From NCBI RefSeq assembly GCF_041248615.1, contig NZ_CP158426.1: 64,000 nt of DNA. The stretch is one strand, 5' to 3'. Positions 1 through 55,490 of the stretch are shown piece after piece; position 1 is the first letter of the stretch; every line of letters starts with the position of its first letter. The stretch is from Escherichia coli. GTDB lineage: Bacteria > Pseudomonadota > Gammaproteobacteria > Enterobacterales > Enterobacteriaceae. The notes under the pieces are model-generated. The model did no database searches. It was not told the origin of the DNA and saw only the letters and a list, made by a program, of their open reading frames with translations. Both the position numbers and the translations under genes were made by a program.

Positions 1-77
1 GCATGGCTATGGATTGATAAATGATATCAAAACGTATCAGCTAGTTTCCACGGTTAGAGAAGATGGCTATTATACTT

Positions 78-107
78 CAGAAACGGAACAACAGCGTTCC
101 GTTTCTG
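78..107. repeat. Perfect 12-bp inverted repeat with 6-nt loop (CAGAAACGGAAC-N6-GTTCCGTTTCTG)
   Basis: Read directly from sequence; lies upstream of the first operon; no clear T-run so not a classical terminator. Confidence 0.5.
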
Positions 108-389
108 ACGGACTGATTCTTCCGTAAATTCAGGTGTAAATCGTGGTGTGCCCATACGCTCCTCCTATGCTCAAACTATAGGGCAGGATCGTCTACCGGG
201 GTGGGGTCAGTCCACCAATGACTGAGAGGTGTCTGTTAAACCCGTGGCGATTCAGACATTACTCTTCCTATGTACACTGGAGTAGATTGAATAATCATAT
301 AATAATCAATCGGTTGAAATCATTTAGGGCTTTTGTATTAATAGTATTGAGATGGTTTGGTCATGGTTCCAGTTCATAAGGAAATAGTT

Positions 390-1442
390 ATGGGAATTAG
401 TGTTCGAGTCTTGCAAGCAAATCATGGTGATTGTTTCTTAGTTAGTTATAAGAGCTCAGATAGTGTTTACAACTTGCTAATTGATGGTGGTAATAGCGCC
501 ACATTTATGTTTGGGGCTCAAGGGCGCTACAGTGGTGAGCTTAAATGTGTACTCGATGATTTGAAAAAAGAAGGTCAGAAAATTGACTTGGTTATCTTAA
601 CCCATATAGATGATGATCATATCGGTGGTTTGCTTAGGGCTTTTGAAACACCAGGTTATCTATGCCAAATGGCTTCTTCTATCTGGTTTAATTCTTCAAG
701 ATTTATCACCAAACATTTTAAGGTTGATGAAATTTCAGACAATGATGTCTGTCTTCAAAGTAACTCAACGCAGACAAGTGCTAGGCAAGGGAAGAAACTG
801 GAAAACTTACTTGATGAAATCAATTGCGAACGGCAACCCATAGTTATTGCGGGGCAGAAGTTTACAAGGGGTCCGTTCACATTCACGATCTTATCCCCTG
901 AAGAAGATAATCTACGTAGCCTTCTTCATAAGTGGCCAGATGAGCCAGATCCGGTTACGACATCCGGTGCTTCAAGGGATTATGGAATGAAATTTGAGGA
1001 TATTTTGTCTAATGATAAATTCCAGAGTGATCAATCTGTTTATAATGGTAGCTCAATTGCTTTCATCCTTGAAGCTGATGGTAAGGCTATGCTCTTTTTG
1101 GGCGATTCACATGATGAAAATATTGTCCGTAATTTACGATCTCTTGGTTTTAATGAAGGTAACAAGCTCAAACTCGACCTCGTGAAAATTTCTCATCATG
1201 GTAGCCAGTATAATACTAGCCCTGAATTTTTGTCGCTCATAGATGCGCAAAACTTCATTATATCCACTAATGGGAGTAAGCACGGACTTCCTGATAAGAG
1301 AACTATTGCACGGATTTTATCTTCAGGAGAAGGCAAAATCGGCTTCAATTATTCGCACATTATCCAGGAGATGCTTCACGAAAATGAGGTTCCATTGTAC
1401 TCTTCTCGCCTGGTAGCATTAAATGGAGAAATTAGGCTATAA
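390..1442 (+). CDS. Metallo-beta-lactamase-fold hydrolase (ComEC/Rec2-like MBL family)
   Basis: ORF track 357..1442; ATG at 390 preceded by AGGAAA; motifs LVILTHIDDDHIGG (variant of HxHxDH) and KISHHGSQYNTS typical of MBL-fold enzymes; AT-rich. Confidence 0.7.
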   Translation: MGISVRVLQANHGDCFLVSYKSSDSVYNLLIDGGNSATFMFGAQGRYSGELKCVLDDLKKEGQKIDLVILTHIDDDHIGGLLRAFETPGYLCQMASSIWFNSSRFITKHFKVDEISDNDVCLQSNSTQTSARQGKKLENLLDEINCERQPIVIAGQKFTRGPFTFTILSPEEDNLRSLLHKWPDEPDPVTTSGASRDYGMKFEDILSNDKFQSDQSVYNGSSIAFILEADGKAMLFLGDSHDENIVRNLRSLGFNEGNKLKLDLVKISHHGSQYNTSPEFLSLIDAQNFIISTNGSKHGLPDKRTIARILSSGEGKIGFNYSHIIQEMLHENEVPLYSSRLVALNGEIRL

Positions 1443-1443
1443 A

Positions 1444-2727
1444 ATGACCGCTTCAAATTTGATGGCTTCTAACGCAGTGATCGTGAACGAGGGCAGTGGT
1501 GTTCTTGTTAATGCGATGACTCAAGATTATTCATACGTACTCACAGCAAAACATGTGTTAGCGAAATCAGGTAGTCAAAATATCGTTACTAATCAATATG
1601 GTAACAGTCTTAGAGTGCTTGATGTATTGGTGGGTCAGGAAGAGCATTGCGACTGTGCTGTAATCAAAATTGAATATGTACCAACTGTTGCTCAGCAGTC
1701 CTTCCCTGCAATAGCATTACCCAATTCGGCTTTGCTAAAGTTTGTTGGTTTTCCGGGAACCGAGAGACTAAGCGCTACCCCGCTGAAAATCTATGATGGG
1801 CATGTAACAGATGTAAGGGAGGGGCTGATTAGCTTCACGATAGAAGGCAGTCCCTCAAAAACCGCAATCGATGGAATGTCTGGCGGTGGAATGTATTACA
1901 TAGTTAATGAACATCCCCTCCTTGTTGGTGTAGAATTTGGGATGGACAGTATTCGTCAAGATCTACAATATGGACGTATACAATGTAAAAGTTTAATTGT
2001 TTTTGAAGAGATAATTAATTTAAACAGTGCTGCTCCAATGGTTCCCGCTTATTTGGAGTGTTTTTCACGCTTAAAAGAATATATCTTCGATTTTAATGTT
2101 GTTGATAAAAATAGAGTTCTGAATCTGAAAAACGCATTAAATATTTTTGCAGATGAACTTATAGACAAAGGTATGCCACCACCATTTGAATTAATGTCCA
2201 AATACAAAACTGATTTGTTAGTAGGTCCATATCAAGTTGACGATGTTAAAAATAAAGAATTATGGGTTGCATATTTTGAATTTCTGATAATTTGCGCAAT
2301 TCTTGATAATGTAAGTATTGCCAATAGTTCTTATATAGAAAGTTTAGAGCGGCGTAGGAGAATTCTTTATACTCCGGATGGAAGTAATTGGGTCGGAAAG
2401 CTTGATGTAATCTTAAAAGTTGCTCGAAAGTTATTAGATAAAGATGGCATAGTAATTGTGGCATCTCCAGAAAATGGAGCCGAATTATTACCGGATGATT
2501 TTGAAGTCGATAGGGTTATAAGGAATATTGCGCGAATCGCTAATTCAGGTCCACTTGCTCCTATCGATCAAGTTGAAAAAGAGATGTATAAGAGTTTTGT
2601 ATTAACGCATCTTGAAGGGCTGAGAAAAAAATGTGTTATAAACAAAGAGAGAATGTATGCAGAAGTTGAAGCTGGCTTAGACCAACTTCAGACGTTTAAG
2701 GAAAGCTTTAATGAATTTATTAAATAA
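1444..2727 (+). CDS. Trypsin-like serine peptidase with uncharacterised C-terminal domain
   Basis: ORF track 1423..2727; ATG at 1444 directly after upstream stop (TAA 1440-1442); candidate triad His (LTAKHV), Asp (CDCAVIKI), Ser (GMSGGGMYY); about 240 aa C-terminal extension of unknown fold. Confidence 0.7.
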   Translation: MTASNLMASNAVIVNEGSGVLVNAMTQDYSYVLTAKHVLAKSGSQNIVTNQYGNSLRVLDVLVGQEEHCDCAVIKIEYVPTVAQQSFPAIALPNSALLKFVGFPGTERLSATPLKIYDGHVTDVREGLISFTIEGSPSKTAIDGMSGGGMYYIVNEHPLLVGVEFGMDSIRQDLQYGRIQCKSLIVFEEIINLNSAAPMVPAYLECFSRLKEYIFDFNVVDKNRVLNLKNALNIFADELIDKGMPPPFELMSKYKTDLLVGPYQVDDVKNKELWVAYFEFLIICAILDNVSIANSSYIESLERRRRILYTPDGSNWVGKLDVILKVARKLLDKDGIVIVASPENGAELLPDDFEVDRVIRNIARIANSGPLAPIDQVEKEMYKSFVLTHLEGLRKKCVINKERMYAEVEAGLDQLQTFKESFNEFIK

Positions 2728-3262
2728 AGAATTTGATTTGGAATTTCTTAAATCTAGATTTTCTGATGCAGATTTCTATTTTTTTGTTTCTAATGATGAC
2801 TCATCTTATATTTCATGCGTAGCATGCTATTGTGAGAGCGCTAATTACGTGGTTGCGAATTGGACAGCGATTCAGAATTATTTATCTGCTTACTACCAAC
2901 CGAAGGATGAATTAGCTCTTTGGAATATATATTTAGTTTTCTTTTGTTCCGAAAAATTACCGATTTGGGATAAGTACCTTATAGATAATGATAAGTATTC
3001 TGTCAGAAAATTAATTATTGACGGGTTAACTACTCTGCCAAGTATTTCCGAAACTGTAACTTTTCTGAACAATCATCTGCTAGGCGCAGACCTAGAATTA
3101 ACTGAAATAGAGGAGAAGAAGGAGATAGAGTTATCATTAATTGAGTATATAAGTGGAACTCCTTTAGATTCAAAGGTTGAGTCGAGAGATGAGCGTATGA
3201 GCAGAATTGATAAAATTATTAATCTAGTGAGTTCAAATAAAAATGAAAATAAAAAAAGTTGA
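2711..3262 (+). CDS. Hypothetical protein, 183 aa, middle gene of candidate operon
   Basis: ORF overlaps upstream gene by 17 nt and downstream gene by 20 nt (translational coupling); no recognisable motif. Confidence 0.5.
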   Translation: MNLLNKEFDLEFLKSRFSDADFYFFVSNDDSSYISCVACYCESANYVVANWTAIQNYLSAYYQPKDELALWNIYLVFFCSEKLPIWDKYLIDNDKYSVRKLIIDGLTTLPSISETVTFLNNHLLGADLELTEIEEKKEIELSLIEYISGTPLDSKVESRDERMSRIDKIINLVSSNKNENKKS

Positions 3263-6200
3263 AATAGAAGGCTTTCGAGCATACAGATTCAAGGAAGATG
3301 GTACTTTCGATTTTACAAATAAAGATGATACGCCATCCAATTTTGTAGCGATCTATGCACCCAATGGCTTTGGAAAAAGTTCATTCTATGATGCGGTTGA
3401 ATGGGCTATTACTCATAATTTAGATAGATTTGCGGGTGAATATAATAAAAAAAATTATGAGCAAGCTGCCAGGAGCACGAAAGAGGACGGTGTTGCACAA
3501 AAAATACTACGTAATAAAGATGTACCAGACAATATTCCTACTCGTGTAACAGTTTTCACTACTTTACCAACTCCATTCGAACAAAGTTTAGGAACAGTTC
3601 GTTCTGATTCTAGAGATATAAGAATCGGCGAGAATAAAAATAAAATCAATGGCTATTTTAGAAAAGTGGTTCTTAGTCAAGATGAAATAGACCGTTTTTT
3701 AAAAGAAGCAAAGCCGCAAGATCGTTATAAGATGTTTATGGAGAGTTTTGGAGGTGAATGGGAAAAGGCGAGACAAGAGCTAACTATACTATTGAATGAC
3801 AATAAGGCGGTTTTGTTAAATCTCGAAAAAAACAAAAATGAACTTCAGGAACAACTAGATCAGCCTGTTGATGCGTCAACATTCATACAATTTAATAAAA
3901 TAGCATCTGAACTTGTAGCAGAAGGTGAAAGTTTACCATTAGTAGATGAAACAACTATAGTTAATACACAGCATGAGCTTTTGGAAAAAATAATCACAAG
4001 AAGTCACGAAATAAATTTTTCCTTAAACAAGAAAAAAATATTGAGAGATTCGATTTCTGAGTATATTTTAAAATTTCCTGATATCAGTTTTCGTACAACC
4101 CAGATTATCGAGAAAAAGAATAGACTAGAAAAAATAAATAAAGGGATAGAAGATGTCGGTCGTTATAAGACATTTCAGTCTACTCTTGAAAAACTGACTA
4201 TCGAAAAGAAAAAGATAAGTCAGAGCTTAAATTTTATAGAAGAATTAGATGGTTTATCCCAAGAGTTTTTAAGCTTGGAATTTAACTTGGAATCAGCTCG
4301 AAAGAAACATAGAGAGATTTCATATAATTATGAAAATGAAAAAACTCTCCTTGATAATTTATTCCAAACAAGAAACCAAAATGATGCTGATTTATCTTCA
4401 ATTGACAAGCGATGCTTATCTATACGTTCTACGTTAGAAAACGCTACGGTTACTTATTCTAATATATCTAATATACAAAATAAAATTTTAAATATAGTTT
4501 CTACGCAAACAGAATTAGAGCACAAACTTAATCAAGTTAGATCCGAATACCAAAAAAACAAATCCGAATTAAACAAAGTATCAGATTTAACAATAACCGC
4601 CAAATCATTACTTTCATCAGACTTAAGTCTAATTGATTTATCTTCAGATTTATTAAAAGAACTAAACAACTTATCGCAAGAACTAAATATATTGGTCCTA
4701 CATGATCAATCAATTCATAACACACAAGAATCTCTTTCTGCACAAATGGGAGTTCACGAACGTCTAATTGCATCGGGCCTTGAGTACTTAAGTTTATGGC
4801 CGACTAATATATGTCCTTTATGTCACAAGCCGCATGACTCTGAGTCCTCTCTTAGAGAACAAGTAACAAATACTGACGTAATATCCATGCTTAGTAAAGA
4901 GAATGCAGCTAAGCTCGAGATATCCTCAAAACGGCGGTCAGAGTTAAATGGCAAGATAGAATCCATCGTACAGAAAGCCCTTGAAATTAAAATGAGTAAA
5001 CTTGAGGTATTAAGTAAAAAGGTCAATCAACAAGGAAATGAGATACATCGAGAAGAACAGCACTATACAGCTCTTTTAGCAGAAAAACAGTCTGTCCAAA
5101 ATCAGTTAAACGAGTTGCAGAAGGCTGTAGCTGGACTAACTAAAGATGAATTATTAGCTCGCTTAGATGCTGAACTTAAAGAATTAGAGGCCAAGAAAAA
5201 TGAAGTGATAAAAAACAAGCTGACCTTGACGAAAAATATTAACGTTAAAAGAACGTTGATTACAGAGTTAAGTGGGGCGATCAATTTACTTAATACGCAA
5301 ATTCATGAAATGATGTCATCATCTAACTATTTAAAAACAAAAGCTTACTCTGAAGAAAATGGCTTGTCATCGGAGTTTTTGAAAGAACATTATGATGATA
5401 AACGCCATTTTTACCTTAAAAATATAAATGGACTCAATTTTGAGATTAATAATATTACCAGCCAATTAAATGATCTTCAGAAAGCTATGATAGCCGATGA
5501 AATGTGGCTGGATTATGAAGAAATGATTTCTGAAAAAGAGAATTTCGAGGATTATATTTCTAAATCAGAAGCGGTTTTACAATCTTATTCATCATTATTA
5601 AAGCAGCATTTTGAACTACCAAAATATGAATCTTTAGTTGAATTGAAAGATTTCCTGATAAGCTCACTTGATAAAGAAACTAGGCTTTATAATGGTCTAG
5701 AGGAACGGCTTGGAAAATATAATTTATTATCAGAACTTTTGAAAACAGCAGAGTCGTTTGTAAAAAGTATTAAGTTGCAGAATGATATTAATGAAACCTT
5801 AGGTCTTATAGAAATAAGAAAAGAAGTTGATTTAGCTCTGACTAAGGAACGAAATCAAGTAATAGAGGAACTTAGAAACTTGATAAAATCTTTCTTTTAT
5901 GAGGAACTCATTAATTCTATTTATAAGAGAATAGATCCACATCCATCACTTAAGAAAGTGGTGTTTCGCCCAGATTTTGACTCATCAGATAAACCTGGTC
6001 TTAATATAGTTGTCAGTGATGAAAAAGGTGATATGGTATCTCCAATATTATTCTTTAGTGCAGCGCAATTAAATATTCTAAGCCTTAGTGTCTTTTTAGC
6101 AAGTGCTTTGCATGCAAAAGATGATAATGGAAATGTAATTGATGTGATTATGATTGATGATCCAATTCAATCAATGGATTCAATTAATATCCTATCCACA

Positions 6201-6380
6201 ATTGATCTTCTTAGAAGTATTACCGTTAGATTCAACAAACAAATAATAATATCAACACATGACGACAATTTCTTTGGCTTGCTCCAACGTAAAATCCCTT
6301 CGGAAATATTGGGTGCCAAGTTTCTTAAATTGGAGAAATTTGGGGTTGTAGTGCCTGTTGATGATTTAAATAATACATGA
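3243..6380 (+). CDS. SMC/Rad50/RecF-like ABC ATPase with long coiled coil and central CxxC motif
   Basis: N-terminal Walker A YAPNGFGKSSFYDAVEWAI; long K/E/L/Q-rich coiled-coil middle; CPLCHKP near centre; C-terminal signature-like FSAAQLNILSLS, Walker B VIMIDDP, His-switch ISTHD. Confidence 0.8.
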   Translation: MKIKKVEIEGFRAYRFKEDGTFDFTNKDDTPSNFVAIYAPNGFGKSSFYDAVEWAITHNLDRFAGEYNKKNYEQAARSTKEDGVAQKILRNKDVPDNIPTRVTVFTTLPTPFEQSLGTVRSDSRDIRIGENKNKINGYFRKVVLSQDEIDRFLKEAKPQDRYKMFMESFGGEWEKARQELTILLNDNKAVLLNLEKNKNELQEQLDQPVDASTFIQFNKIASELVAEGESLPLVDETTIVNTQHELLEKIITRSHEINFSLNKKKILRDSISEYILKFPDISFRTTQIIEKKNRLEKINKGIEDVGRYKTFQSTLEKLTIEKKKISQSLNFIEELDGLSQEFLSLEFNLESARKKHREISYNYENEKTLLDNLFQTRNQNDADLSSIDKRCLSIRSTLENATVTYSNISNIQNKILNIVSTQTELEHKLNQVRSEYQKNKSELNKVSDLTITAKSLLSSDLSLIDLSSDLLKELNNLSQELNILVLHDQSIHNTQESLSAQMGVHERLIASGLEYLSLWPTNICPLCHKPHDSESSLREQVTNTDVISMLSKENAAKLEISSKRRSELNGKIESIVQKALEIKMSKLEVLSKKVNQQGNEIHREEQHYTALLAEKQSVQNQLNELQKAVAGLTKDELLARLDAELKELEAKKNEVIKNKLTLTKNINVKRTLITELSGAINLLNTQIHEMMSSSNYLKTKAYSEENGLSSEFLKEHYDDKRHFYLKNINGLNFEINNITSQLNDLQKAMIADEMWLDYEEMISEKENFEDYISKSEAVLQSYSSLLKQHFELPKYESLVELKDFLISSLDKETRLYNGLEERLGKYNLLSELLKTAESFVKSIKLQNDINETLGLIEIRKEVDLALTKERNQVIEELRNLIKSFFYEELINSIYKRIDPHPSLKKVVFRPDFDSSDKPGLNIVVSDEKGDMVSPILFFSAAQLNILSLSVFLASALHAKDDNGNVIDVIMIDDPIQSMDSINILSTIDLLRSITVRFNKQIIISTHDDNFFGLLQRKIPSEILGAKFLKLEKFGVVVPVDDLNNT

Positions 6381-6406
6381 TTTATTTAGTGTGTTAACCA
6401 TAAAAT

Positions 6407-6440
6407 AAGAACTGGGCCAGTGACGACCCAGTTCTTATTT
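6407..6440 (+). terminator. Hairpin terminator after ATPase gene
   Basis: AAGAACTGGG-N10-CCCAGTTCTT followed by ATTT, 27 nt after stop at 6380. Confidence 0.5.
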
Positions 6441-7696
6441 ATAGGGGAACCTATTTTTATCGCAATAAATTAAGAGCGAAGATATGGTGAAAATTGTTAA
6501 AATATGAATTTTTTTAATTTTTTATCTAAAGCCCCTGTTTTCATTATCGTATAAATCAATCTGGACGATTTGTTCTTCAGGTGCAAGGGTATCCGCAAAC
6601 TAGCGCAGGCTATCACCGCCTATAAGCTCCAGAATATGATCAAGTCCATGCCCTCCTGACAACCCAATCGCCTGTAATGACCATTCAGGAATGATTTGCT
6701 CTTTTGATGACTCAACCACAAATGTATCGAGCTCAGTCTTTGCTTAGAGCAGAATTTGAGCCCAAGACTTCCACTCGTATCATCGTAGGTCAGCGTTTCT
6801 CAGAAAATAACCCATGTAACCACGGCATCCGTCTCCGAATGTTATCCTAGAAACAATATTGAGGGGGGAATGTAGAATCATAACCTCTGAATTAACGTAG
6901 ATTAAATCATTCGATCTAAATCAGAGCATTCATAGTGATGGTACACTCAGCACCAGACAAAGATCTCTAGGGGTTTGTTCTAATAAACATGGCCCTCATT
7001 CCTTCTGGTGAAATTCGGAATCTGATTGCGTAGGATAATTACATCCAGGAATCGGGCTAGCATTACAGCCCCCTAAGGGTGTTGTTTGCAACGGTTCATG
7101 TTTGTCTGAGTAACTATATTCCTGAATGTGTTGCTCCGAATTTACGGATTGCCTTGCAGAAAAGGGCTGTTCTGGCGTTGTGCTTTGAAAGGCGTACACC
7201 TGAGGAGCACAGAGCCACAGGAAGGGCAGTAGGGTGCAGCGGGCGAGTACATTCATATATTCTCCAGACAGAATTCATACCAATTATATGATATGCCAGA
7301 TTGACTCAATAAAGCGTTAACGAAGAACGAAAATATAAGACCAGGTATAGAACTCGACATGCCGATAGTCGCCGGGAAATATCGTGGCCAGATTTTTTGT
7401 TAATGCTCATAGTCAGGCAACAAGGGTCGCTGCAGTAATGACTTCTGAACCTTATAACAAATTTCGGCACGACACTTTTATCATCTTTTTCATAATAAAA
7501 CCTCCGTTTTTGTTTTAATCGTCCTCCGGATGTTTCGGACATTGGATGCCCGTAACATCCGGAGGCTGCGGGTGCGGGCGGCAAAGAGCCCGTGAAGATG
7601 CCCGGAATGAATGGCAAACCCCCTCAGGAATGAAGAAAATACGCAATCAATGCTGGGGTGCTTTGTTGATCACTTTTACTGAAGTACTTTTCTATC

Positions 7697-8416
7697 TCAG
7701 AAGTAGGTTGTCCAGAAAGAGGAAACTGGCATCGCCAGTACCAATGCAGGAAGCATACTGGCTACCGGGAAGACCTTGATACCGGAAATACGCAGGCCGG
7801 TCGCCACCATTAGAACGCCACCCACAGCTGAAAAGTCGGCCTGCATGGCAGGCGTGGTCAGGGGCAATATATATATCGCGCTGTAGGCGAGTGCTAACTG
7901 AATGATAAGCTGGGGGAAAGCGACTAATGCCACGGCGTAACCCAGGGTTGTGGCAAAAATGAGGGCGGTCAGCAAATCCAGGAACGCTTTCGCGATAAGG
8001 ATACTCGAGTCCCCGGTCATGCCTTCGTGCATCGCACCAAAAATACCGGTGCCACTGGCACAAAAAAGGACGATGATCGCCACATAGTTTTGTAAAAACT
8101 GCGCCTGTGAGTCTTTGTCTCCGGGATCGCTTTTCACGACGAGCTCCACCAACCCACGGGCTTGTCCGCCCAGGTGGCTTATCCCTTTTTCCAGATAGCA
8201 GAGCTCGCCCACCAGTGTGCCGAGAAGGACCGATAGAACCATGACGGGCATATGGCTGACACTTGTCACAAGGACGATCCCCATACACAGGGAGGCAGCA
8301 CCAAAAATGAGCGGCATTGAGGTACGTAACCTTTCAGGTAGACGTGAGCTAATGATGGCTCCTGCCATCCCGCCGATCACGACGGCAGAGCCGTTGAACC
8401 ATGGGCCTGTAATCAT
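7697..8416 (-). CDS. DUF554 family inner-membrane protein (YqgA-like)
   Basis: Hydrophobic 239-aa ORF; recalled similarity to E. coli YqgA including NYVAIIVLFCASGTGIFG and ILPLTTP; overlaps UbiX-like stop by 4 nt. Confidence 0.7.
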   Translation of the reverse strand: MITGPWFNGSAVVIGGMAGAIISSRLPERLRTSMPLIFGAASLCMGIVLVTSVSHMPVMVLSVLLGTLVGELCYLEKGISHLGGQARGLVELVVKSDPGDKDSQAQFLQNYVAIIVLFCASGTGIFGAMHEGMTGDSSILIAKAFLDLLTALIFATTLGYAVALVAFPQLIIQLALAYSAIYILPLTTPAMQADFSAVGGVLMVATGLRISGIKVFPVASMLPALVLAMPVSSFWTTYF

Positions 8417-9027
8417 AGCGATTTACTCCTGTTATTCAGGTTGGGAGTTTCACCCCAGCGCGGCAATGTGTCGCAATCAAGGTCGAGTAAACTCAGCGCC
8501 CGCGCAACACTATGAGCGAAGATGTTCTCAGTACTTGCAGGGCGTGCATACCAGGCAGGTACGGGTGGAAAAATGATGCCGCCGGTTTCGGTAACCTGAA
8601 GCATGTTACGAAGGTGCCCGGTATGCAGCGGCGTTTCCCGTACCATCAGAACCAGCCTCCGGCGCTCTTTCAGGGTCACATCGGCTGCCCGCACCAGCAA
8701 ACTGTTGGTTAAGCCCGCCGCAACAGCGGCGAGGGTGTTCATAGAGCAGGGGACAATCAACATCCCGGATGCCCTGAACGAACCGCTGGCGATGTCGGCT
8801 GCAATATCATCAAAGGGATAAATTACATCAGCCAGCTTATGAACGTCGTCTTCTGACAAAGTGGTTTCCAGACTGCGGGTCAGATGAGCGGCAGGAGAAA
8901 TCACAACGTGACTTTCCACGTTAAGTTGTCGCAGATAACGCAGGGCCTGCACTCCATATAAAAAACCGGATGCACCACTGATCCCAATGATGACGCGCTT
9001 GCGAGGAGAACATTCAGATGTCGACAT
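8413..9027 (-). CDS. UbiX/Pad1-family flavin prenyltransferase
   Basis: N-terminal VIIGISGASGFLYG motif typical of UbiX; 204 aa; directly downstream of UbiD-like gene. Confidence 0.85.
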   Translation of the reverse strand: MSTSECSPRKRVIIGISGASGFLYGVQALRYLRQLNVESHVVISPAAHLTRSLETTLSEDDVHKLADVIYPFDDIAADIASGSFRASGMLIVPCSMNTLAAVAAGLTNSLLVRAADVTLKERRRLVLMVRETPLHTGHLRNMLQVTETGGIIFPPVPAWYARPASTENIFAHSVARALSLLDLDCDTLPRWGETPNLNNRSKSL

Positions 9028-9037
9028 TATGGCGTCC

Positions 9038-10522
9038 TCAGTACTTGAAGTTATCCGGGAGGAAACGACTGATCTCGACCTCCATGAATTCGCTGCGGCG
9101 AAACTGGCCTTTCATCGTGAACGGAACGGTACAGTCGAAAATAGTTTTACAGGCGATCCCGTGGTCGCGGACGGAGTAACTAAAAGCCGGGTCAGAGGAC
9201 GGATCGAGGGGATGGCACCTTACGCCGGGTATGAACACCGTGCTGATATCCCCCTGATAGCGTGTCGTCATTGCCCATATCACGTCATTGAGATCGAAAA
9301 TATCCACATCGTCATCAACCAGAATCACATGCTTGAGTTCCGAGAATGCGGAGAAGGCCAGAAGAGCCGCCTGGCGCTGACGACCTTCATCGTTTGGCAG
9401 ACGTTTTTTCACCTGCAATACGGCAAGATATTTTCCGGTCCCGGGTGACGGGCAGTGAACATTTTGCACAAAGCCGGGAAGGGCGCGCTCCACCAGTTGC
9501 AGAATACTGGCCTCGGTGGGGATCCCTGCCATATTGGTATGCTCGTCACTTGGACCAATGCAGGTCTGTAGAATTGGGTGACGGCGGTGGGTGATGGCTT
9601 TCACTTTTATCACTGGCACCATTTGCTGTGCCTGTCCGGTATAGCCGGGGAATTCCGGCATGGCTTTACCACTGTTGGTATTTTGATCCTCCCTGACCCG
9701 ATAGTTAGGAATGAGTTCCCCCTCGATAACGACTTCGGCGTTCGCAATGGCCCGGGCATTCACGGTCAGACACTGGCACAGCTCAACAGGCTGTTTACGC
9801 AAGCTCCCTGCCACTGACAGTTCGTCAAAACCAAGTGGAGTTGTGGGCGGTTCGAAGCAGGCACCGATTTCAATGGCTGGGTCAACACCAATGCTGATCG
9901 AGATGGGAAGTGGGGCCCCATCTTCCTCTGCTTTCTGACGGAACAAATCCAGATGCCGACCGGGAACGAAGTACATGGATATTTCATCCCTGTTTTGCAC
10001 GCACAGTCGGTGAATAGTGATGTCATGCTCGCCGGTATGTGGATCGGCGGCGTAGCACATACCGAGAGTGAAGTAAGGACCGGCATCCTCCGGCGTATTC
10101 GTGGGTGCTGGCAGGATATTGAGGATACTGAAATCCGGATCGGATGCCAGATGGACTACTTCCTGACAGACGGCATTTTCCTGCGGAATAACGACAGGAC
10201 TTATCGGGGTGCTTACCGCGTCTTTCAGTAAAAAGGCCAGCTTATCGGGTGTGGTATCCAGTAGCCGGGCCACGCGTTTTCGCGAGGCGAGAAGACCTAT
10301 CAGCACTCGCATATCGGTATAGCCTTTAATCCGGTTAAAGAGCATGGCTGGACCGATACGAGTCGGACGCATGACCGTACCGTGTGCCCCAATGTAGCGG
10401 TACACCCCTGACAGTTCTGCACTTGGATCAACGGGTTCATCGGTTTCGATAAGCTCATCATCAAACTTGCGCAGTACGGCCAGCGCACTGCGTAGGTCAG
10501 TCACTTTTTGTGTTTGAGACAT
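9038..10522 (-). CDS. UbiD-family (prFMN-dependent) decarboxylase
   Basis: 494-aa ORF with UbiD-like size and sequence character; paired with UbiX-like gene as in non-oxidative aromatic acid decarboxylase operons. Confidence 0.8.
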   Translation of the reverse strand: MSQTQKVTDLRSALAVLRKFDDELIETDEPVDPSAELSGVYRYIGAHGTVMRPTRIGPAMLFNRIKGYTDMRVLIGLLASRKRVARLLDTTPDKLAFLLKDAVSTPISPVVIPQENAVCQEVVHLASDPDFSILNILPAPTNTPEDAGPYFTLGMCYAADPHTGEHDITIHRLCVQNRDEISMYFVPGRHLDLFRQKAEEDGAPLPISISIGVDPAIEIGACFEPPTTPLGFDELSVAGSLRKQPVELCQCLTVNARAIANAEVVIEGELIPNYRVREDQNTNSGKAMPEFPGYTGQAQQMVPVIKVKAITHRRHPILQTCIGPSDEHTNMAGIPTEASILQLVERALPGFVQNVHCPSPGTGKYLAVLQVKKRLPNDEGRQRQAALLAFSAFSELKHVILVDDDVDIFDLNDVIWAMTTRYQGDISTVFIPGVRCHPLDPSSDPAFSYSVRDHGIACKTIFDCTVPFTMKGQFRRSEFMEVEISRFLPDNFKY

Positions 10523-10651
10523 TACGTTTTCCTCAGTAAGTCGCCGGGAGACAGCATGCCCGGTGTGCTTTTATCTTCATCCTGCAGGCAATCACAGGAC
10601 GAGCCGTTACATCACTGACAGTATGTGAGGCAACATAAATCCCCGTCTAAT

Positions 10652-10675
10652 CACATTAACGACGTTTTTAATGTG
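10652..10675. promoter_or_regulatory. Interrupted palindrome CACATTAA-N8-TTAATGTG, candidate LysR-type regulator binding site
   Basis: Located in divergent intergenic region between the UbiD-like operon and the LysR gene; dyad of the kind used by LTTRs. Confidence 0.4.
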
Positions 10676-10710
10676 GGATTGTTATCGAAAAATAGTGATT
10701 GGAGGAACGT

Positions 10711-11592
10711 GTGGACTATCGGTATTTGCATGCATTTGTGGTGCTTGCCAGAGAACTGCATTTTGGAAAAGCCGCACTGCGGCTCAACATCACGCAGCCA
10801 GCCTTAAGCCGTCAGATTAGAGTGCTGGAAGATCAGCTTGGCATGGTGCTATTTACGCGTGATCGTCGTCATGTGGCGCTGACTGTGGAAGGAACTCAGC
10901 TTGCAGCGGAGGCGCGGAGCGCCGTCAGTCATTACGAAAAAATGCTGAGCCGTGCGAGTAGCCTTCGAAAAGGCTATAAAGGACAACTCATACTGGGTTA
11001 TGTCGGATCTTCCATTCTTGATCCCGCCCTGACACGGTTAATCACCTGTTTTCGCGAGACTAAACCGGATGTTGAGATTGTTATTGAGGAGCACAACGTT
11101 GACGAACAGCTCACCCTCCTGCTCGACCATCAACTGGATATGGGGCTGCTCCGATCGCCTGTTCCGCATTTTGCCAACCTGGACTACGTGGATATCGCCA
11201 CCAGGTCACTCATCGCCGCAGTACCGCACACGCATCCGCAGGCAGGAGTCGGTAAAATAGAGCTGGAGACGTTGTCCGGGGATACATTTATGATCCAGAA
11301 AGATCCGCCCGGGGTCGGGCTAGGCTGGTCTGCATTACATGCCTGTGAGATGGCCAGTTTTGTCCCACCCAAAATCTATTTTACTCGCGATGTTGCGGTG
11401 GCTATTGGCATGGTGTCGATGGGAATAGGAGTTACGCTGGTGCCAGAAACCCAGCGTTCTGTAACGTTGCCTAATGTCTGCTACTGCCTGCTGCACGATC
11501 CCGAGGTCACAACGACCTTAACGCTTTGCTGGCCGAAATTCAGGAAAAGCAGGGAATTGATAGAGTTTGTACGCTCTTTAACGCTTGGTTGA
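10711..11592 (+). CDS. LysR-family transcriptional regulator
   Basis: N-terminal HTH LHFGKAALRLNITQPALSRQIRVLEDQLG; GTG at 10711 with GGAGG 5 nt upstream (ORF track starts at TTG 10699); divergent from decarboxylase operon. Confidence 0.85.
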   Translation: MDYRYLHAFVVLARELHFGKAALRLNITQPALSRQIRVLEDQLGMVLFTRDRRHVALTVEGTQLAAEARSAVSHYEKMLSRASSLRKGYKGQLILGYVGSSILDPALTRLITCFRETKPDVEIVIEEHNVDEQLTLLLDHQLDMGLLRSPVPHFANLDYVDIATRSLIAAVPHTHPQAGVGKIELETLSGDTFMIQKDPPGVGLGWSALHACEMASFVPPKIYFTRDVAVAIGMVSMGIGVTLVPETQRSVTLPNVCYCLLHDPEVTTTLTLCWPKFRKSRELIEFVRSLTLG

Positions 11593-12133
11593 ATCTTAAG
11601 AAGCTGCAGTTGAGTCATAGCCAGCGATCAAAATTGAGAAGACAAAACCGGGGAGAGGTGCCCGCAGTTTCTGCCCCAGCTCCCATCTTCAGGAAGATGT
11701 GTTTCAGGAATGCATTCGTGATGCTGGGGATAGCGGCAAGACGATTTTCTCATCGGGTAACTCTGCGGTATCGGAACAGTTGACGACGGCAGGGTGGTGA
11801 ATGGGAACCTCAGGATGAAGCGCTCGGGCAAGAGGGATGGACTGTGCTGAAGAGAACACTGACAGAACGAGCATGATGCTTGCAAAAAGGGGACTCTGGA
11901 TATTCATTGTTTATCTCCTGATGATATTCATCGCTCCAGAGAATACGCTTGCCACTCTTTTTATTTGTTTTCCTGAATTAAAAATGCCCGGTTTTATGTG
12001 GTTCTTCCGTAAACGTTATTACATTAATTAACATCTAGTTTCTATCTCCGAAATGAGGTAAAAAAATAATTGTCGTGGTTTTTATCAAACAAATTTACCG
12101 GCAGCTCAGATCCGAACTAATACCTGGAAATTC

Positions 12134-12182
12134 AAACCCCAAACCCCAAACCCCAAACCCCAAACACCAAACCCCAAACACC
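12134..12182. repeat. Tandem heptanucleotide repeat (AAACCCC/AAACACC) x7
   Basis: Read directly: four AAACCCC, then AAACACC, AAACCCC, AAACACC; complementary strand is (GGGGTTT)n. Confidence 0.9.
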
Positions 12183-12412
12183 ATTTCACCGCTGGCGTGT
12201 AAGGGGCTCTATATCTGTTTATTCAGGGATAGTTTTTTCTCCCGTGTGATTTCCGTTCATGTATCTGCTTCCGGTTAATCGTTTCCCAGCACAACCCGTC
12301 CCGCAAGGGTAAATGGCACGCCTGCTGCGCCCTTGCGGGATGGAACGATGCCGGGAAAGCGAACCGTCAGGCGATACGAAGACGAAAATCACACCACTGA
12401 CGGAGAAAAAAA

Positions 12413-13357
12413 ATGACTATGTCCCTGCATACCAAGATAAGTGCCCCTAACACGACAGCGGCGACCAGCGTATCCTCGCTGGATCTGTCAGGCTCCTCAA
12501 AAACGAAATGTTCAACAGCCAGAACCGATATTTATCAGACTGTTACCGACAGCATAATTGCGGCGCTGGAAACCGGAGTAAAACCTTGGGTGTGTCCTTG
12601 GCAGCGAGCTCCCGGTATGTCCGGTTTACCGTCCAATTACGCCACTGGTAAGGCTTACAGCGGAATGAATATCATGTTGCTTTGGTGCAGCGCGTCAAAA
12701 CAGGGATTCTGTGATTCACGCTGGATGACCTACAAACAGGCAAAAGCGGTAGGTGGGCAGGTGCGCAAGGGAGAACACGGCACTACCGCGATTTTCTATA
12801 CCACGCTGGAAAAGGAAAATGATAACGGAGAAACTGACTATATTCCTATGCTGAAAGCATTCACTGTGTTTAATGTTGAACAAATTGACGGTTTACTCCT
12901 GAGTGATGATGCCGTTTTTCCGGCAGAGATCTTTGAGCCATTACCACGTGCAGAAGCACTTTTTCGTAGTAGCGGTGCAACCATTATTGAAAAAGGACAG
13001 AATGCTTTTTTTACACCATCAACCGACGAAATTCGCTTACCTGAACGGTATCTTTTTATTGATGCTGCTAATTTCTACGCAACCGGCCTGCATGAGCTCG
13101 TTCACTGGAGTGGGGCAAAAAGTCGGCTGAACCGTGAAATGAAAGGGAAATTTGGCAGCGAGGGGTATGCGTTTGAAGAGTTGATCGCTGAGCTGGGGAG
13201 CGCATTCCTGATGGCGGATCTGGGGATAGTTGGAGAAGTTCTGCATGACAGTTATATCGCTTCCTGGCTTAAAGCACTGAGGAATGATAAACGCTATATT
13301 TTCAAGGCCGCCAGCGCGGCATCGAAAGCACATCGCTATTTGATGGATAAAAGCTGA
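12413..13357 (+). CDS. ardC: ArdC-like antirestriction protein (ssDNA-binding N-domain plus zincin-like metallopeptidase C-domain)
   Basis: DIYQTVTDSIIAALETGVKPW N-terminal ArdC-type motif; HExxH motif GLHELVHWSG in C-terminal half; hairpin after stop. Confidence 0.75.
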   Translation: MTMSLHTKISAPNTTAATSVSSLDLSGSSKTKCSTARTDIYQTVTDSIIAALETGVKPWVCPWQRAPGMSGLPSNYATGKAYSGMNIMLLWCSASKQGFCDSRWMTYKQAKAVGGQVRKGEHGTTAIFYTTLEKENDNGETDYIPMLKAFTVFNVEQIDGLLLSDDAVFPAEIFEPLPRAEALFRSSGATIIEKGQNAFFTPSTDEIRLPERYLFIDAANFYATGLHELVHWSGAKSRLNREMKGKFGSEGYAFEELIAELGSAFLMADLGIVGEVLHDSYIASWLKALRNDKRYIFKAASAASKAHRYLMDKS

Positions 13358-15010: not shown

Positions 15011-17212
15011 ATGAACATTAAAAATAATTTGAAAGGTATTAGCCGTTTTTTTTATTCTTTTTACTTACGCTCTCGGTTACTTCTCCCAGCGCAAAAATCA
15101 TCGACCTTTAATACATTAAATCAGAATGAAGGCGTTATTAGCAGGATTTACGCTATAAACTTAGAACGGGAAGCGATTAGATGGGCAGATTTAAATAAAG
15201 AACTGGGTAAAATACTAGATAAATCTAATAAAAAATTAACGAGCCAATTAACCAGATTCTCTGCTATAAACGCCAAAGAAATGTCAGACATTCTCAATGA
15301 GGAAGAGGTTATTCCTTATTATACTTTAGCAGACCAGTTGTACGTTGACCCTCAACCAAAAATCTTACCCGATAAATTTGATCTCGATGTCCCTATAAAA
15401 ATGAGTAAAGCGGAAATTGCTGTAGCATTATCGCATCTAAATGTTATTAGGCTTGTTGCAGAAGGTTCTGATGCATATGCTTTAGTGCTTGAGGATGACG
15501 TGTATTTTGAAAGAGATTTTGCCAAAACCTTAGATGCTGCTTGGTCTGAAATGATTCAAGCTGACAGATCTTCACCTGGTTTTGATATCTTATATTTGTC
15601 ATTTAAAGAGGTTATGAATGGCGCGAAAAAGAAAATTATTTCGAAAAGCATATTTAAACCAGAGCGAGGGTTATGGTATTTTTCAGGATATGTATTATCT
15701 AAGAAAGGAGCAAATAAAATCCTCTCACTCCTCCCAACTTATGGACCAATTGACTTATGGATAAATCATCAATTTGAGAAACTCGATGTGAGGGCAGTAT
15801 ATAAGTCGATCATTTCTCAGAGGTTGGATTTTAACTCTTCAAATTCCTATTCAATATTACCTACCTTAGTGAAGATTGGTATTATTGACAATGAAAAAGC
15901 TTCCAGTTTTAATGAACTTCCAAATTATTGGCCTGTTTTTGCATTTGGTGTAAGTGGTTCGGGTATTTCTTCTTTGGGTATGGCACTATCAATGCTTGGC
16001 TATAAGTGTTGTAGTGATATTGATAGACTTCCCAATGCAGACTTAAAAAATCTATTAAGTAATTCAGAGCAGAATGAATTCAATGCTTATGTAAATGTTG
16101 GCTGTCTCAGTAAGTATATCGGCATATTAAAAAAACAATATCCAAAAGCAAAATTTATAATTACCACGAGTGAATCAAAAGAAATCGAAGATGTTATTTT
16201 TAATATAATTGAGGAGATCGTTGATACTGACTATGTTGTATTGCATTCAGATGAAAAAAACAAATGGAAGGTTATATGTGAATACCTTCAATGCCCACCA
16301 CCTATTTCAGCGTACCCAGAAATGGCTGACATTATTCCTAGGCAGATTATAGATATCACCAGTGCAGCACAAATCAATAATTCAGAAATTAACATGATAC
16401 ATGACATTTCCCCTTGGATATTAGAAAGAAAGAATTTTTCAGGAAATGGTTTTTTTATAAAAGATAATCCGAAGAGAATTGAAAAAGAGCTTGCTGATTT
16501 CTTCATTAATGATTCACTACAAAATATTAATAATAACTATTGGGAAATTCGCGATGATACTTTCCCTGGAAATCTTGGACTGTTTCGACCTCAAAATGTG
16601 ATTCAAAATGATATTAGTGGTTTAGGTCTTGTAGTTAAGGAGGAACAGTTAGGCGTTAGAGAGTTTAGTGCTGCTGCGATTTCAAGTAGAATGAAGTTCC
16701 TATATGGCCGATTTGAAGTGTCCCTACGAGCGGCAAATGTTGCAGGGATAGTAACCGGCTTCTTTTTACATAGAGATTCGCCTCGTCAAGAAATCGATAT
16801 TGAGTTTGTTGGAAATCGATCTGATCATATGTTGATCAATGTTTTTTATAATCCTGGTGATGAAGGTGCAAAGTTTGATTATGGATATCGTGGTACACCA
16901 ACTCTTATTCCTTTAGGTTTTGATGCTTCTGAAGAGTTTCATGATTACATGATTGAATGGAGTCCTGATGAGATAAAATGGTTTGTGGATGGAGTTATGG
17001 TTTATCGTAGAGGAGTTTGGGGGCCTACACCTATACCTCATTTACCCATGACCCTTCATGCTAACACTTGGCCAACCCGTTCCAAGGAACTGGCGGGACG
17101 TCTCCACACGCGTTCCTTACCCTGTATCACTTATATTAGGAAAATATGTATTGATGCAACAATGGATGTTAATAATCCAAAATTAAATGACCAGACAGTA
17201 GTGGCTGGTTAA
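15011..17212 (+). CDS. Multidomain protein: GT25-like glycosyltransferase N-domain, central region, GH16-like C-terminal domain
   Basis: N-terminal RIYAINLEREAIRW and LVLEDDVYFE resemble family 25 glycosyltransferases; C-terminal EIDIEF matches the GH16 ExDxxE catalytic motif; 733 aa; AT-rich. Confidence 0.65.
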   Translation: MNIKNNLKGISRFFYSFYLRSRLLLPAQKSSTFNTLNQNEGVISRIYAINLEREAIRWADLNKELGKILDKSNKKLTSQLTRFSAINAKEMSDILNEEEVIPYYTLADQLYVDPQPKILPDKFDLDVPIKMSKAEIAVALSHLNVIRLVAEGSDAYALVLEDDVYFERDFAKTLDAAWSEMIQADRSSPGFDILYLSFKEVMNGAKKKIISKSIFKPERGLWYFSGYVLSKKGANKILSLLPTYGPIDLWINHQFEKLDVRAVYKSIISQRLDFNSSNSYSILPTLVKIGIIDNEKASSFNELPNYWPVFAFGVSGSGISSLGMALSMLGYKCCSDIDRLPNADLKNLLSNSEQNEFNAYVNVGCLSKYIGILKKQYPKAKFIITTSESKEIEDVIFNIIEEIVDTDYVVLHSDEKNKWKVICEYLQCPPPISAYPEMADIIPRQIIDITSAAQINNSEINMIHDISPWILERKNFSGNGFFIKDNPKRIEKELADFFINDSLQNINNNYWEIRDDTFPGNLGLFRPQNVIQNDISGLGLVVKEEQLGVREFSAAAISSRMKFLYGRFEVSLRAANVAGIVTGFFLHRDSPRQEIDIEFVGNRSDHMLINVFYNPGDEGAKFDYGYRGTPTLIPLGFDASEEFHDYMIEWSPDEIKWFVDGVMVYRRGVWGPTPIPHLPMTLHANTWPTRSKELAGRLHTRSLPCITYIRKICIDATMDVNNPKLNDQTVVAG

Positions 17213-49855: not shown

Positions 49856-49931
49856 TGGCTCCTCTGACTGGACTCGAACCAGTGACATACGGATTAACAG
49901 TCCGCCGTTCTACCGACTGAACTACAGAGGA
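49856..49931 (-). tRNA. asnT: tRNA-Asn (anticodon GUU)
   Basis: Reverse complement reads TCCTCTGTAGTTCAGTCGGTAGAACGGCGGACTGTTAATCCGTATGTCACTGGTTCGAGTCCAGTCAGAGGAGCCA; matches recalled E. coli tRNA-Asn; next to mtfA as at the E. coli asnT locus. Confidence 0.95.
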
Positions 49932-50031
49932 ATCGTGTGAACGGGGCGCATATTACTTAGCGGTACCTTGTCTGTCAACACTAAATTTCATAAGCCATTT
50001 CAATTGGTTAATTAATCTGCAAAGTTGTTAA

Positions 50032-50829: not shown

Positions 50830-50922
50830 CGTTTTGCTCGCAAACTCGTCACTTGAACAAAATTGCACGGACAGGGACTGTTAAAATGCCAAATTTCCTG
50901 GCATCATGGCAACCATCTGAAC

Positions 50923-51012
50923 GGAGAGATGCCGGAGCGGCTGAACGGACCGGTCTCGAAAACCGGAGTGGGGGCAACTCCACCGGGGGTTCAAATCCCC
51001 CTCTCTCCGCCA
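50923..51012 (+). tRNA. serU: tRNA-Ser (anticodon CGA)
   Basis: 90-nt GGAGAGATGCCGGAGCGGCTGAACGGACCGGTCTCGAAAACCGG...CCCCCTCTCTCCGCCA with long variable arm. Confidence 0.9.
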
Positions 51013-55437: not shown

Positions 55438-55490
55438 GGGCGGCAGAGCAGTCACGGAGTAAAACTGATACCGCCAAACGTCACCAGAAA
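55438..55490 (-). ncRNA. dicF: DicF small regulatory RNA
   Basis: Minus-strand sequence TTTCTGGTGACGTTTGGCGGTATCAGTTTTACTCCGTGACTGCTCTGCCGCCC followed by a T-run; matches recalled DicF; lies between ydfC and dicB. Confidence 0.8.

What the first reader, a model, noticed from the sequence alone, without database searches (positions are those of the whole stretch)
3243..6380. ATPase carries a CxxC motif at the centre of its coiled coil (zinc-hook-like)
Seen in sequence: between RecF/SMC-type Walker A (APNGFGKSS) and the C-terminal Walker B/His-switch lies a very long heptad-rich segment with CPLCHKP roughly midway. Established knowledge: Rad50/SbcC and RloC use a central CxxC to form a zinc hook that dimerises coiled-coil arms. 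Inference: this protein may bridge DNA through hook-mediated dimers.
Basis: partly seen in the sequence, partly recalled or inferred. Interest (0 to 1): 0.6.

Follow-up and report, generated by a model that had tools for sequence, protein, structure and literature searches.

The report
Lamassu defence ATPase with zinc hook

Summary
ORF 3243-6380 (+) encodes a 1045-aa split ABC ATPase. It has Walker A (APNGFGKS, aa 39-46), Walker B (VIMIDD, 968-973) and an H-switch (H1006). Two ~350-residue helical arms meet at CPLC (aa 524-527; protein midpoint 522.5). Only 3 cysteines exist in the protein. The CP-x-C is invariant and centred in all 257 full-length homologues examined, down to 26% identity. 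AlphaFold2 places it in a 15-residue turn between the ascending and descending helices, not in a globular insert.

The protein is not novel. It matches the PADLOC LmuB model end to end (E = 1.6e-269). It is the last gene of a four-gene "long Lamassu / ABC-3C" Hydrolase-Protease operon: MBL pro-nuclease, trypsin-CTD4 protease, LmuC/MC1, LmuB. The operon sits in a low-GC cassette on an E. coli chromosome. Published work already states that long LmuB proteins always carry one CxxC zinc hook and an hhhhDD Walker B. It also shows that hook mutation abolishes defence in a short Lamassu.

"DNA bridging" is not. The likelier role is holding together an LmuB dimer that senses DNA ends and triggers the protease-nuclease effectors. 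Zinc binding itself remains untested.

The parts
390..1442 (+). MBL-fold (ComEC/Rec2-like) hydrolase, the Lamassu 'hydrolase' effector. It is a probable gated pro-DNase. The metal motif HIDDDH and the HHG motif are intact.
   Evidence: PADLOC LmuA PDLC03854 E=7.6e-125, and similarity to Avs1a. RefSeq start at 390, annotated ComEC/Rec2 family. Motifs. Mechanism by analogy.
1423..2727 (+). LmuA protease: an N-terminal trypsin-like serine protease (H44, D77, S153 in the motifs TAKHV, CDCAV, GMSGG) plus the ABC-3C C-terminal docking domain CTD4. It overlaps the upstream gene by 20 nt.
   Evidence: PADLOC LmuA PDLC03855 E=1.2e-122. Pfam Trypsin_2 24-157 and CTD4 190-406, E=8e-52. Motifs.
2711..3262 (+). 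LmuC, also called ABC-3C Middle Component 1 (183 aa). It overlaps both neighbouring genes (17 and 20 nt).
   Evidence: PADLOC LmuC PDLC03873 E=1.8e-44. Pfam MComp1 E=1.3e-9. RefSeq name.
3243..6380 (+). LmuB: a 1045-aa SMC/Rad50-like split ABC ATPase, the presumed sensor of the system.
   Evidence: PADLOC LmuB PDLC03865 E=1.6e-269 over residues 1-1039 of 1045. Pfam AAA_23, SMC_N and AAA_13. Foldseek hits to Smc5/6, Rad50, SbcC, MukB and Salmonella LmuB.
3357..3380 (+). Walker A / P-loop, APNGFGKS (aa 39-46).
   Evidence: A39, P40, N41, F43, G44, K45 and S46 are invariant; G42 is >=90% conserved.
3753..4796 (+). Ascending coiled-coil arm (aa 171-518). It is helical, with breaks at about 206-212, 227-237, 277, 338 and 449-467.
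   Evidence: AF2 DSSP; heptad score and proline depletion.
4797..4841 (+). Apex turn (aa 519-533), WPTNICPLCHKPHDS. It contains the CPLC hook motif (aa 524-527, nt 4812-4823) and the clade-specific H531.
   Evidence: Loop with a beta-bridge between helices in both AF2 models; the fragment model has pLDDT 89. C524, P525 and C527 are 100% conserved.
4842..5933 (+). Descending coiled-coil arm (aa 534-897).
   Evidence: AF2 DSSP. The Cys-to-Walker B span is 438 +- 6 residues across 256 homologues.
6057..6068 (+). ABC signature-motif equivalent, SAAQ (aa 939-942).
   Evidence: S939, A941 and Q942 are invariant and A940 is >=90% conserved. The motif aligns to SGGE of SbcC and SGGE of T. maritima Rad50.
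6144..6161 (+). Walker B, VIMIDD (aa 968-973). Asp replaces the usual catalytic Glu. The D-loop (SMD) follows.
   Evidence: DD was found in at least 121/139 divergent representatives. It matches the published hhhhDD signature of long Lamassu.
6258..6260 (+). H-switch histidine, H1006 (STHD).
   Evidence: Invariant. It aligns to the H-loop His of Rad50 and SbcC.
6403..6440 (+). Perfect 14-bp inverted repeat with a 10-nt loop and a T-rich 3' side, 23 nt after the LmuB stop codon. It is a probable operon terminator.
   Evidence: the repeat finder I7; sequence. The consensus terminator scanner did not call it because the loop exceeds 8 nt, so this is an inference.

Best explanation
The ORF is LmuB, the SMC/Rad50-like sensor ATPase of a 'long' Lamassu (ABC-3C) anti-phage system of the Hydrolase-Protease subtype. 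The system is carried on a low-GC mobile cassette in an E. coli chromosome.

Each LmuB chain folds back on itself. The N- and C-terminal halves of the ABC head meet, and two ~350-residue helices form an antiparallel rod. The tip of the rod is the invariant CPLC turn. By analogy with Rad50/SbcC and with solved short LmuB complexes, two protomers are joined at this tip, most likely by one Zn2+ bound by four cysteines (two from each chain). This would give a dimer whose heads can engage around ATP and DNA ends.

Recognition of aberrant or phage DNA ends would then change the complex so that the CTD4-tethered trypsin-like protease is released or oligomerised. The protease would cleave the gating loops of the co-encoded MBL pro-nuclease, which would degrade DNA and abort the infection.

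Shown here: family membership, operon composition, the motif set, the apex position of CxxC in confident models, and its absolute conservation. Inferred: zinc binding, hook-mediated dimerisation, DNA-end sensing, and the protease-to-nuclease cascade in this particular system.
For: Family and operon: all four genes give full-length PADLOC Lamassu hits. Pfam finds CTD4 and MComp1 of ABC-3C. RefSeq labels the neighbours ABC-three component system proteins. The same four-gene order surrounds two distant homologues, and a third, on a truncated contig, keeps MC1-ATPase.

Hook geometry: CPLC lies at 524-527 of 1045 aa, with only 3 Cys in the protein. AF2 full-length and fragment models (pLDDT 75 and 89) place it in the turn between helices 468-518 and 534-628. 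The fragment's top Foldseek hit is the Rad50 Zn hook 1L8D.

Conservation: 257/257 full-length homologues keep a single centred CP-x-C. It is the only fully conserved motif in a rod that otherwise averages 25% conservation. Both arm spans are fixed to within +-5-6 residues.

Literature: long LmuB always has one CxxC and an hhhhDD Walker B, and a Hydrolase-Protease long Lamassu from B. cereus is a validated defence system (PMC12663957). A zinc-hook mutant of Salmonella LmuB loses phage defence (bioRxiv 2025.03.14.643221). The hooks are juxtaposed in the B. cellulasensis LmuB dimer. Trypsin-like proteases activate gated MBL DNases.
Confidence: 0.85

Rival explanations
1. The protein is a genuine SbcC/Rad50-type DNA-repair ATPase that tethers or bridges DNA ends through inter-complex hook dimers.
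For: It has the same length as E. coli SbcC (1045 against 1048 aa), and the hook strings are similar: CPLCHKPHD against CPLCGSTSHP. hhalign aligns the hook regions (E = 2e-4, probability 47%) and the C-terminal head (probability 93%). Some sources name homologues 'exonuclease SbcC'. Long LmuB is proposed to descend from SbcC.
Against: No SbcD/Mre11 nuclease gene is adjacent. The partners are an MBL hydrolase, a protease-CTD4 and MC1, and that set recurs around distant homologues. Walker B is DD, not DE. E. coli K-12 carries a separate canonical sbcCD locus. The cassette has low GC, is IS-flanked, and is present in only 9 of 5426 complete E. coli genomes. That distribution is typical of a defence island and not of a housekeeping repair gene.
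Confidence: 0.04
2. The CPxC is not an intermolecular zinc hook. It is either a redox-active thioredoxin/redoxin-like dithiol, or an intramolecular Cys2-His zinc knuckle using H531 (and possibly H505).
For: Weak Pfam Redoxin matches to the WPxxCPLC string occur in 17/36 family members at E <= 0.1. H531 is invariant and H505 nearly invariant within the close clade. The best PDB sequence hit of the hook profile is a C2H2 zinc-finger protein, at a chance-level E of 0.09.
Against: There is no thioredoxin fold: the motif sits in a 15-residue turn between long helices. H531 is not conserved in the wider family (a His at +4 in 37/139 representatives, and none within 6 residues in 72/139), whereas the two Cys are 100% conserved. 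Two Cys per chain is what the intermolecular Cys4 site of Rad50 requires.
Confidence: 0.05
3. The cysteines are conserved only to shape a tight turn. Dimerisation is carried by coiled-coil contacts without metal, as in the hook-less V. cholerae LmuB.
For: V. cholerae LmuB lacks a hook and still forms functional LmuB2 complexes. Zn density was not resolved in either short-LmuB cryo-EM study. About 60 residues around the apex are moderately conserved, which suggests additional protein contacts.
Against: 100% conservation of both Cys at 26% overall identity, in proteins with very few cysteines, is hard to explain by turn geometry alone. The hook mutant of Salmonella LmuB abolishes defence.
Confidence: 0.06

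Closest known systems
Long Lamassu LmuB, Hydrolase-Protease subtype (DefenseFinder/PADLOC; Haudiquet et al. PNAS 2025, PMC12663957; Millman et al. 2022), also known as the ABC-3C system ATPase with MC1 and CTD4 (Krishnan et al. 2020)
   Same: It matches the LmuB HMM over its full length. The operon has the same order: MBL hydrolase, protease-CTD4, LmuC/MC1, LmuB. Walker A is canonical and Walker B is hhhhDD. There is a single central CxxC. It lies in a defence-island-like cassette.
   Different: The paper gives ~800 aa as typical for long LmuB, whereas this clade is 1044 +- 9 aa, the same length as SbcC. The close enterobacterial/pseudomonad clade adds an invariant His four residues after the second Cys.
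Short Lamassu LmuB with solved structures (Salmonella enterica LmuACB 9HQX/9HQU; Bacillus cellulasensis LmuAB 9UX7)
   Same: Both are SMC-like ABC heads with a folded coiled coil and a CxxC hook at the distal tip. In the solved complexes the hooks of two protomers are juxtaposed, and a hook mutation abolishes defence. Weak structural matches were found here.
   Different: The short proteins are ~560-650 aa with much shorter arms, a Walker B of D[Q/S/T/E], and different LmuA CTD and LmuC families. No sequence-level match is detectable in the PDB. In short systems LmuA and LmuC dock near the hook, whereas long systems are predicted to dock them at the heads.
E. coli SbcC / Rad50 zinc hook (PDB 1L8D, 5GOX)
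   Same: The ABC head is split by a long antiparallel coiled coil with CP-x-C at the apex near relative position 0.5. The total length is nearly identical (1048 aa) and SbcC also reads CPLC...HP. The top Foldseek hit of the hook fragment is 1L8D.
   Different: There is no Mre11/SbcD partner, and Walker B is DD instead of DE. The Pfam Rad50_zn_hook model is not matched significantly. Sequence similarity is confined to the head motifs. The function is defence, not repair.
   Same: Both are defence-associated ABC ATPases with a coiled-coil insert bearing CxxC, and there is a weak AAA_13-type C-terminal head match. The description of RloC rests on my own knowledge of the literature.
   Different: No C-terminal anticodon-nuclease domain is present; the protein ends with the ABC head. 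The effectors are separate genes.

Membership tests
Lamassu LmuB (long type) | Full-length similarity to LmuB profile models | tested here: met
   PADLOC PDLC03865: E=1.6e-269, residues 1-1039 against profile positions 1-1006 of 1007.
Lamassu LmuB (long type) | Encoded with an LmuA effector that carries an ABC-3C C-terminal domain, and with LmuC (the middle component) | tested here: met
   LmuA and LmuC PADLOC hits; Pfam CTD4 and MComp1. The same gene order is found in two distant homologue loci, and a third, truncated contig keeps MC1-ATPase.
Lamassu LmuB (long type) | Walker A Gx4GK[S/T]-type and Walker B hhhhDD | tested here: met
   APNGFGKS and VIMIDD are essentially invariant. DD was found in at least 121/139 representatives.
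Lamassu LmuB (long type) | A single CxxC zinc-hook motif in the coiled coil | tested here: met
   One CxxC at aa 524-527. It is single and central in 118/118 and 138/139 homologues.
Lamassu LmuB (long type) | Total length of about 800 aa, as reported for long LmuB | tested here: not met
   1045 aa here, and 1044 +- 9 aa for the family, against ~800 aa in PMC12663957. This is a descriptive average rather than a strict criterion. PADLOC's own LmuB model is 1007 positions long.
Lamassu LmuB (long type) | Confers anti-phage or anti-plasmid defence that depends on the ATPase and effectors | not testable with these tools
   Validated only for homologous systems.
Rad50/SbcC zinc hook | CxxC located at the apex of an antiparallel intramolecular coiled coil | tested here: met
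   AF2 models place it in the turn 519-533 between helices, with fragment pLDDT 89. A proline cluster sits only at the apex. The arms are symmetric and of fixed length. This is based on models, not experiment.
Rad50/SbcC zinc hook | Significant match to the Pfam Rad50_zn_hook model (PF04423), or specific fold similarity to solved hooks | tested here: inconclusive
Rad50/SbcC zinc hook | One Zn2+ coordinated by four Cys from two protomers, giving Zn-dependent dimerisation | not testable with these tools
   This needs metal analysis, a multimer structure or mutants. It is also unresolved in the published LmuB maps.
SbcCD / Mre11-Rad50 repair complex | A partner Mre11/SbcD phosphoesterase nuclease encoded alongside, and a Walker B of DE | tested here: not met
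   The neighbours are MBL, protease-CTD4 and MC1. Walker B is DD. A canonical sbcDC locus lies elsewhere in E. coli K-12.
RloC | C-terminal anticodon-nuclease domain fused to the hook-bearing ATPase | tested here: not met
   The protein ends at the ABC head, and no extra domain appears in Pfam or in the model.
Thioredoxin/redoxin CxxC | CxxC at the N-terminus of a helix within a thioredoxin beta-alpha-beta fold | tested here: not met
   Only weak Redoxin hits, driven by the motif string. The modelled context is helix-turn-helix.

The most novel reading that the evidence does not exclude
In this SbcC-length LmuB clade the apex may be more than a passive zinc clasp. The ~60-residue block around the hook (aa ~494-554) is the only conserved island in an otherwise free-drifting 700-residue rod. 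In the enterobacterial/pseudomonad clade it includes an invariant His (CPLCxxxH) and a near-invariant H505. This block could form a second interface, for example a docking or signalling site for the protease-CTD4/LmuC (as seen near the hook in short Lamassu), or a His-assisted metal site. That would make the tip a regulatory hub. The retention of full SbcC-length arms would then mark this Hydrolase-Protease clade as the least-derived Lamassu.
Probability: 0.12. Interest if true: 0.4.

Novelty: already known. Interest (0 to 1): 0.15.

Why it matters
It matters little as a discovery. The family, its operon, its DD Walker B and its CxxC hook are all described, and hook mutants have already been tested in a relative. 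Three things are useful.

(i) The locus gets a correct annotation. RefSeq calls the protein only 'AAA family ATPase' and the MBL 'ComEC/Rec2 competence protein', although this is a complete four-gene long Lamassu Hydrolase-Protease system, rare in E. coli (9 of 5426 complete genomes).

(ii) The ~1040-aa LmuB family keeps SbcC-length arms with very tight length control, whereas the published description gives ~800 aa.

(iii) No long Lamassu has a solved structure, and the zinc atom has not been seen in any LmuB map. This compact E. coli system would therefore be a convenient model for those experiments.

Tried and rejected
- PDB sequence searches with the protein, the full-length profile and the hook profile gave only weak Rad50 head hits or chance hits. 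No solved close relative exists.
- Pfam Rad50_zn_hook was not significant.
- Covariation of arm lengths as a test of antiparallel pairing was uninformative, because both arms barely vary (r = 0.11).
- The idea that H531 is a third zinc ligand was weakened. It is invariant only in the close clade and absent from most divergent representatives.
- The redoxin-like reading was rejected on fold grounds.
- Promoter and terminator consensus scans were at chance level. The post-stop hairpin came from the repeat search instead.
- Krishnan et al. 2020 (the ABC-3C founding paper) is not held in the library, so I rely on later papers that cite it.
- A PADLOC scan of ten other ORFs in the window found no second defence system.
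- A homodimer model could not be made or inspected, because the tools give no multimer prediction and no coordinates.
Full report
**1. What is in the sequence**

ORF 3243..6380 on the + strand encodes 1045 aa.
- Walker A is APNGFGKS, at aa 39-46.
- Walker B is VIMIDD, at aa 968-973. It is followed by P974 and the D-loop SMD.
- The H-switch histidine is H1006.
- An ABC signature equivalent, SAAQ, lies at aa 939-942.

All of these are invariant or nearly invariant in a 72-sequence alignment of homologues (A1). The protein has only three cysteines. Two of them form CPLC at aa 524-527 (nt 4812-4823), and the midpoint of the protein is residue 522.5. With three randomly placed cysteines, a CxxC within +-1% of the centre is expected about 1.3 times in 10,000.

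**2. Is the CxxC at a coiled-coil apex or in a globular insertion?**

- The full-length AlphaFold2 model (mean pLDDT 75) is almost continuously helical from 171 to 518 and from 534 to 897. Residues 519-533 form a short turn with one beta-bridge, and this turn carries CPLC.
- A separate model of residues 462-592, built on 36 diverse homologues, is confident (pLDDT 89, pTM 0.75). It shows a long helix, a kink, a short helix, the 15-residue CPLC turn, a short helix, a kink and a long helix.
- Between residues 280 and 792 the only prolines are P520, P525 and P530.
- A crude heptad score is higher in the arms (0.44) than in the heads or in shuffled sequence.

**3. Conservation**

- All 118 full-length homologues from the word-indexed search (41-98% identity) have exactly one CxxC, at relative position 0.49-0.50.
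- An exhaustive profile search found 627 clusters (at 50% identity) with E <= 1e-30.
- All 139 full-length representatives among the best 150 (26-62% identity to the query, median 31%) have a central CP[LVIT]C at 0.507 +- 0.005. In 138 of them it is the only CxxC.
- In an alignment of those divergent sequences the rod averages 25% column conservation. C524, P525 and C527 are 100% conserved and L526 is 90% conserved. The 20-residue window around them is the conservation maximum of the rod.
- Family length is 1044 +- 9 aa. The Walker A-to-Cys span is 479 +- 5 residues and the Cys-to-Walker B span is 438 +- 6 residues. The rod therefore has a fixed length with the CxxC at its turning point.
- The His four residues after the second Cys (H531) is invariant in the close clade but not in the wider family (37/139). 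It is not an essential ligand.

**4. What the gene is**

All four same-strand, overlapping genes from 390 to 6380 match Lamassu models in PADLOC.
- MBL hydrolase: LmuA, E = 7.6e-125.
- Trypsin-like protease: LmuA, E = 1.2e-122.
- LmuC: E = 1.8e-44.
- LmuB: E = 1.6e-269, end to end.

Pfam adds the ABC-3C docking domain CTD4 on the protease, and Middle Component 1 for LmuC. The window is 100% identical to the chromosome of E. coli NRZ14408. RefSeq annotates the genes there as ComEC/Rec2 family, ABC-three component system protein, ABC-three component system middle component 1 and AAA family ATPase.

The cluster is ~32% GC against ~50% in the flanks. It abuts an IS3 remnant and occurs in 9 of 5426 complete E. 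coli genomes. In NCTC9087 a 90%-identical copy has the same left flank but a different right flank. The same four-gene order surrounds two distant homologues, and a third, on a truncated contig, keeps MC1-ATPase. The catalytic motifs of the MBL (HIDDDH, HHG) and of the protease (His, Asp and the GMSGG Ser) are intact.

**5. Comparison with what is known**

- Haudiquet et al. divide Lamassu into short and long types. They report that long LmuB has Walker B hhhhDD and consistently a single CxxC. They list Protease-with-hydrolase among the long-type effectors, and note that a Hydrolase-Protease long system from B. cereus B4077 is a validated defence system. They propose descent from SbcCD (PMC12663957).
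- Li et al. show that the LmuB zinc hook is required for phage protection by the Salmonella system, and that the hooks of two protomers are juxtaposed. The Zn atom was not resolved.
- The B. cellulasensis LmuB dimer shows the same arrangement, with 285-CQYC-288.
- Two 2025 studies show that trypsin-like proteases activate gated MBL pro-DNases by loop cleavage in Hachiman and AVAST, and extend the model to Lamassu.

Every element of the finding is therefore already described for this family.

**6. What differs**

- This clade is SbcC-sized: 1045 aa against 1048 aa for E. coli SbcC. SbcC's hook reads CPLCGSTSHP at relative position 0.48.
- The published typical length for long LmuB is ~800 aa, with an inferred ~200-residue shortening relative to SbcC.
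- Sequence similarity to SbcC is otherwise confined to the head, plus a weak alignment of the hook.
- No solved structure is detectable by sequence.
- These are nuances within a known kind.

**7. Mechanism**

I commit to the following, with the shown and inferred steps marked.
- Shown: the protein is a Lamassu LmuB whose invariant CP-x-C sits at the modelled tip of a fixed-length antiparallel rod. It is co-inherited with MC1, protease-CTD4 and the MBL.
- Inferred from Rad50/SbcC and short Lamassu: two chains share one Zn2+ through four cysteines at the tips, forming the LmuB dimer.
- Inferred: ATP-dependent head engagement on DNA ends or phage replication intermediates changes the complex.
- Inferred: the protease is released or oligomerised, cleaves the MBL pro-nuclease, and the resulting DNase aborts the infection.

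The Asp-for-Glu Walker B suggests slow hydrolysis, consistent with a switch rather than a motor.

**8. Verdict**

- The feature is already known.
- Interest is low, apart from value for annotation and as a convenient E. coli model for the still-unsolved long Lamassu architecture and for the still-unseen zinc.

Noticed in passing
window 72-254 (and just upstream of the window): An IS3-family transposase remnant lies immediately upstream of the Lamassu cassette. It matches IS3 copies in about 1000 E. coli genomes at 80-92% identity. The cassette shared at 90% identity with other strains spans window 273-6587.
   Followed up: partly
window 6381-7696: A ~1.3-kb stretch between the LmuB stop codon and the DUF554 gene has no annotated gene in RefSeq. 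It contains the post-stop hairpin (6403-6440) and a 20-nt-arm palindrome at 7523-7565 (90% complementary, 3-nt loop). The right boundary of the cassette (~6587) falls inside it.
   Followed up: no
LmuB aa 505 and 531 (window nt 4755-4757, 4833-4835); E. coli SbcC aa 506-515 (L002): His531 is invariant and His505 near-invariant in the close (>=41% identity) clade, giving CP[LF]CxxxH. E. coli SbcC has a similar CPLCGSTSHP. The His is lost in most divergent family members, so its role (helix cap, second-shell ligand or partner contact) is unexplained.
   Followed up: partly
window 390-1442 (MBL protein, aa 21-23 in RefSeq numbering): The MBL protein contains one KSS tripeptide (LVSYKSSDSVY). KSS is the cleavage motif reported for the Hachiman-linked trypsin-MBL pair. 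Here it lies near the N-terminus rather than in an obvious inserted loop. Gating loops and cleavage sites for this Lamassu MBL were not mapped.
   Followed up: no
window 3243-6380, family-wide: The LmuB family associated with MBL + protease-CTD4 + MC1 is 1044 +- 9 aa, the same as SbcC. The literature describes long LmuB as ~800 aa and shortened relative to SbcC. This clade may be the least-derived Lamassu.
   Followed up: partly
window 8413-13357: A UbiX-family prenyltransferase, a UbiD-family decarboxylase and a divergent LysR regulator (8413-11592) are followed by an ArdC-family (anti-restriction-like) gene at 12413-13357. This hints that the wider region is part of an integrated mobile element.
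   Followed up: no
window 15011-17212: A 733-aa ORF in a second low-GC patch (34-38% GC) has a C-terminal GH16 beta-glucanase-like domain (NCBIfam E = 1.7e-30, well below the curated cutoff) and an unassigned ~490-aa N-terminal part. It has no PADLOC match.
   Followed up: no
window 49856-51012, 55438-55489 (-), 61662-61836 (+): tRNA-Asn (GTT) and tRNA-Ser (CGA) genes, a DicF sRNA and a sok antitoxin RNA (hok/sok type) are present. These are hallmarks of a tRNA-linked cryptic prophage region downstream in the window.
   Followed up: no
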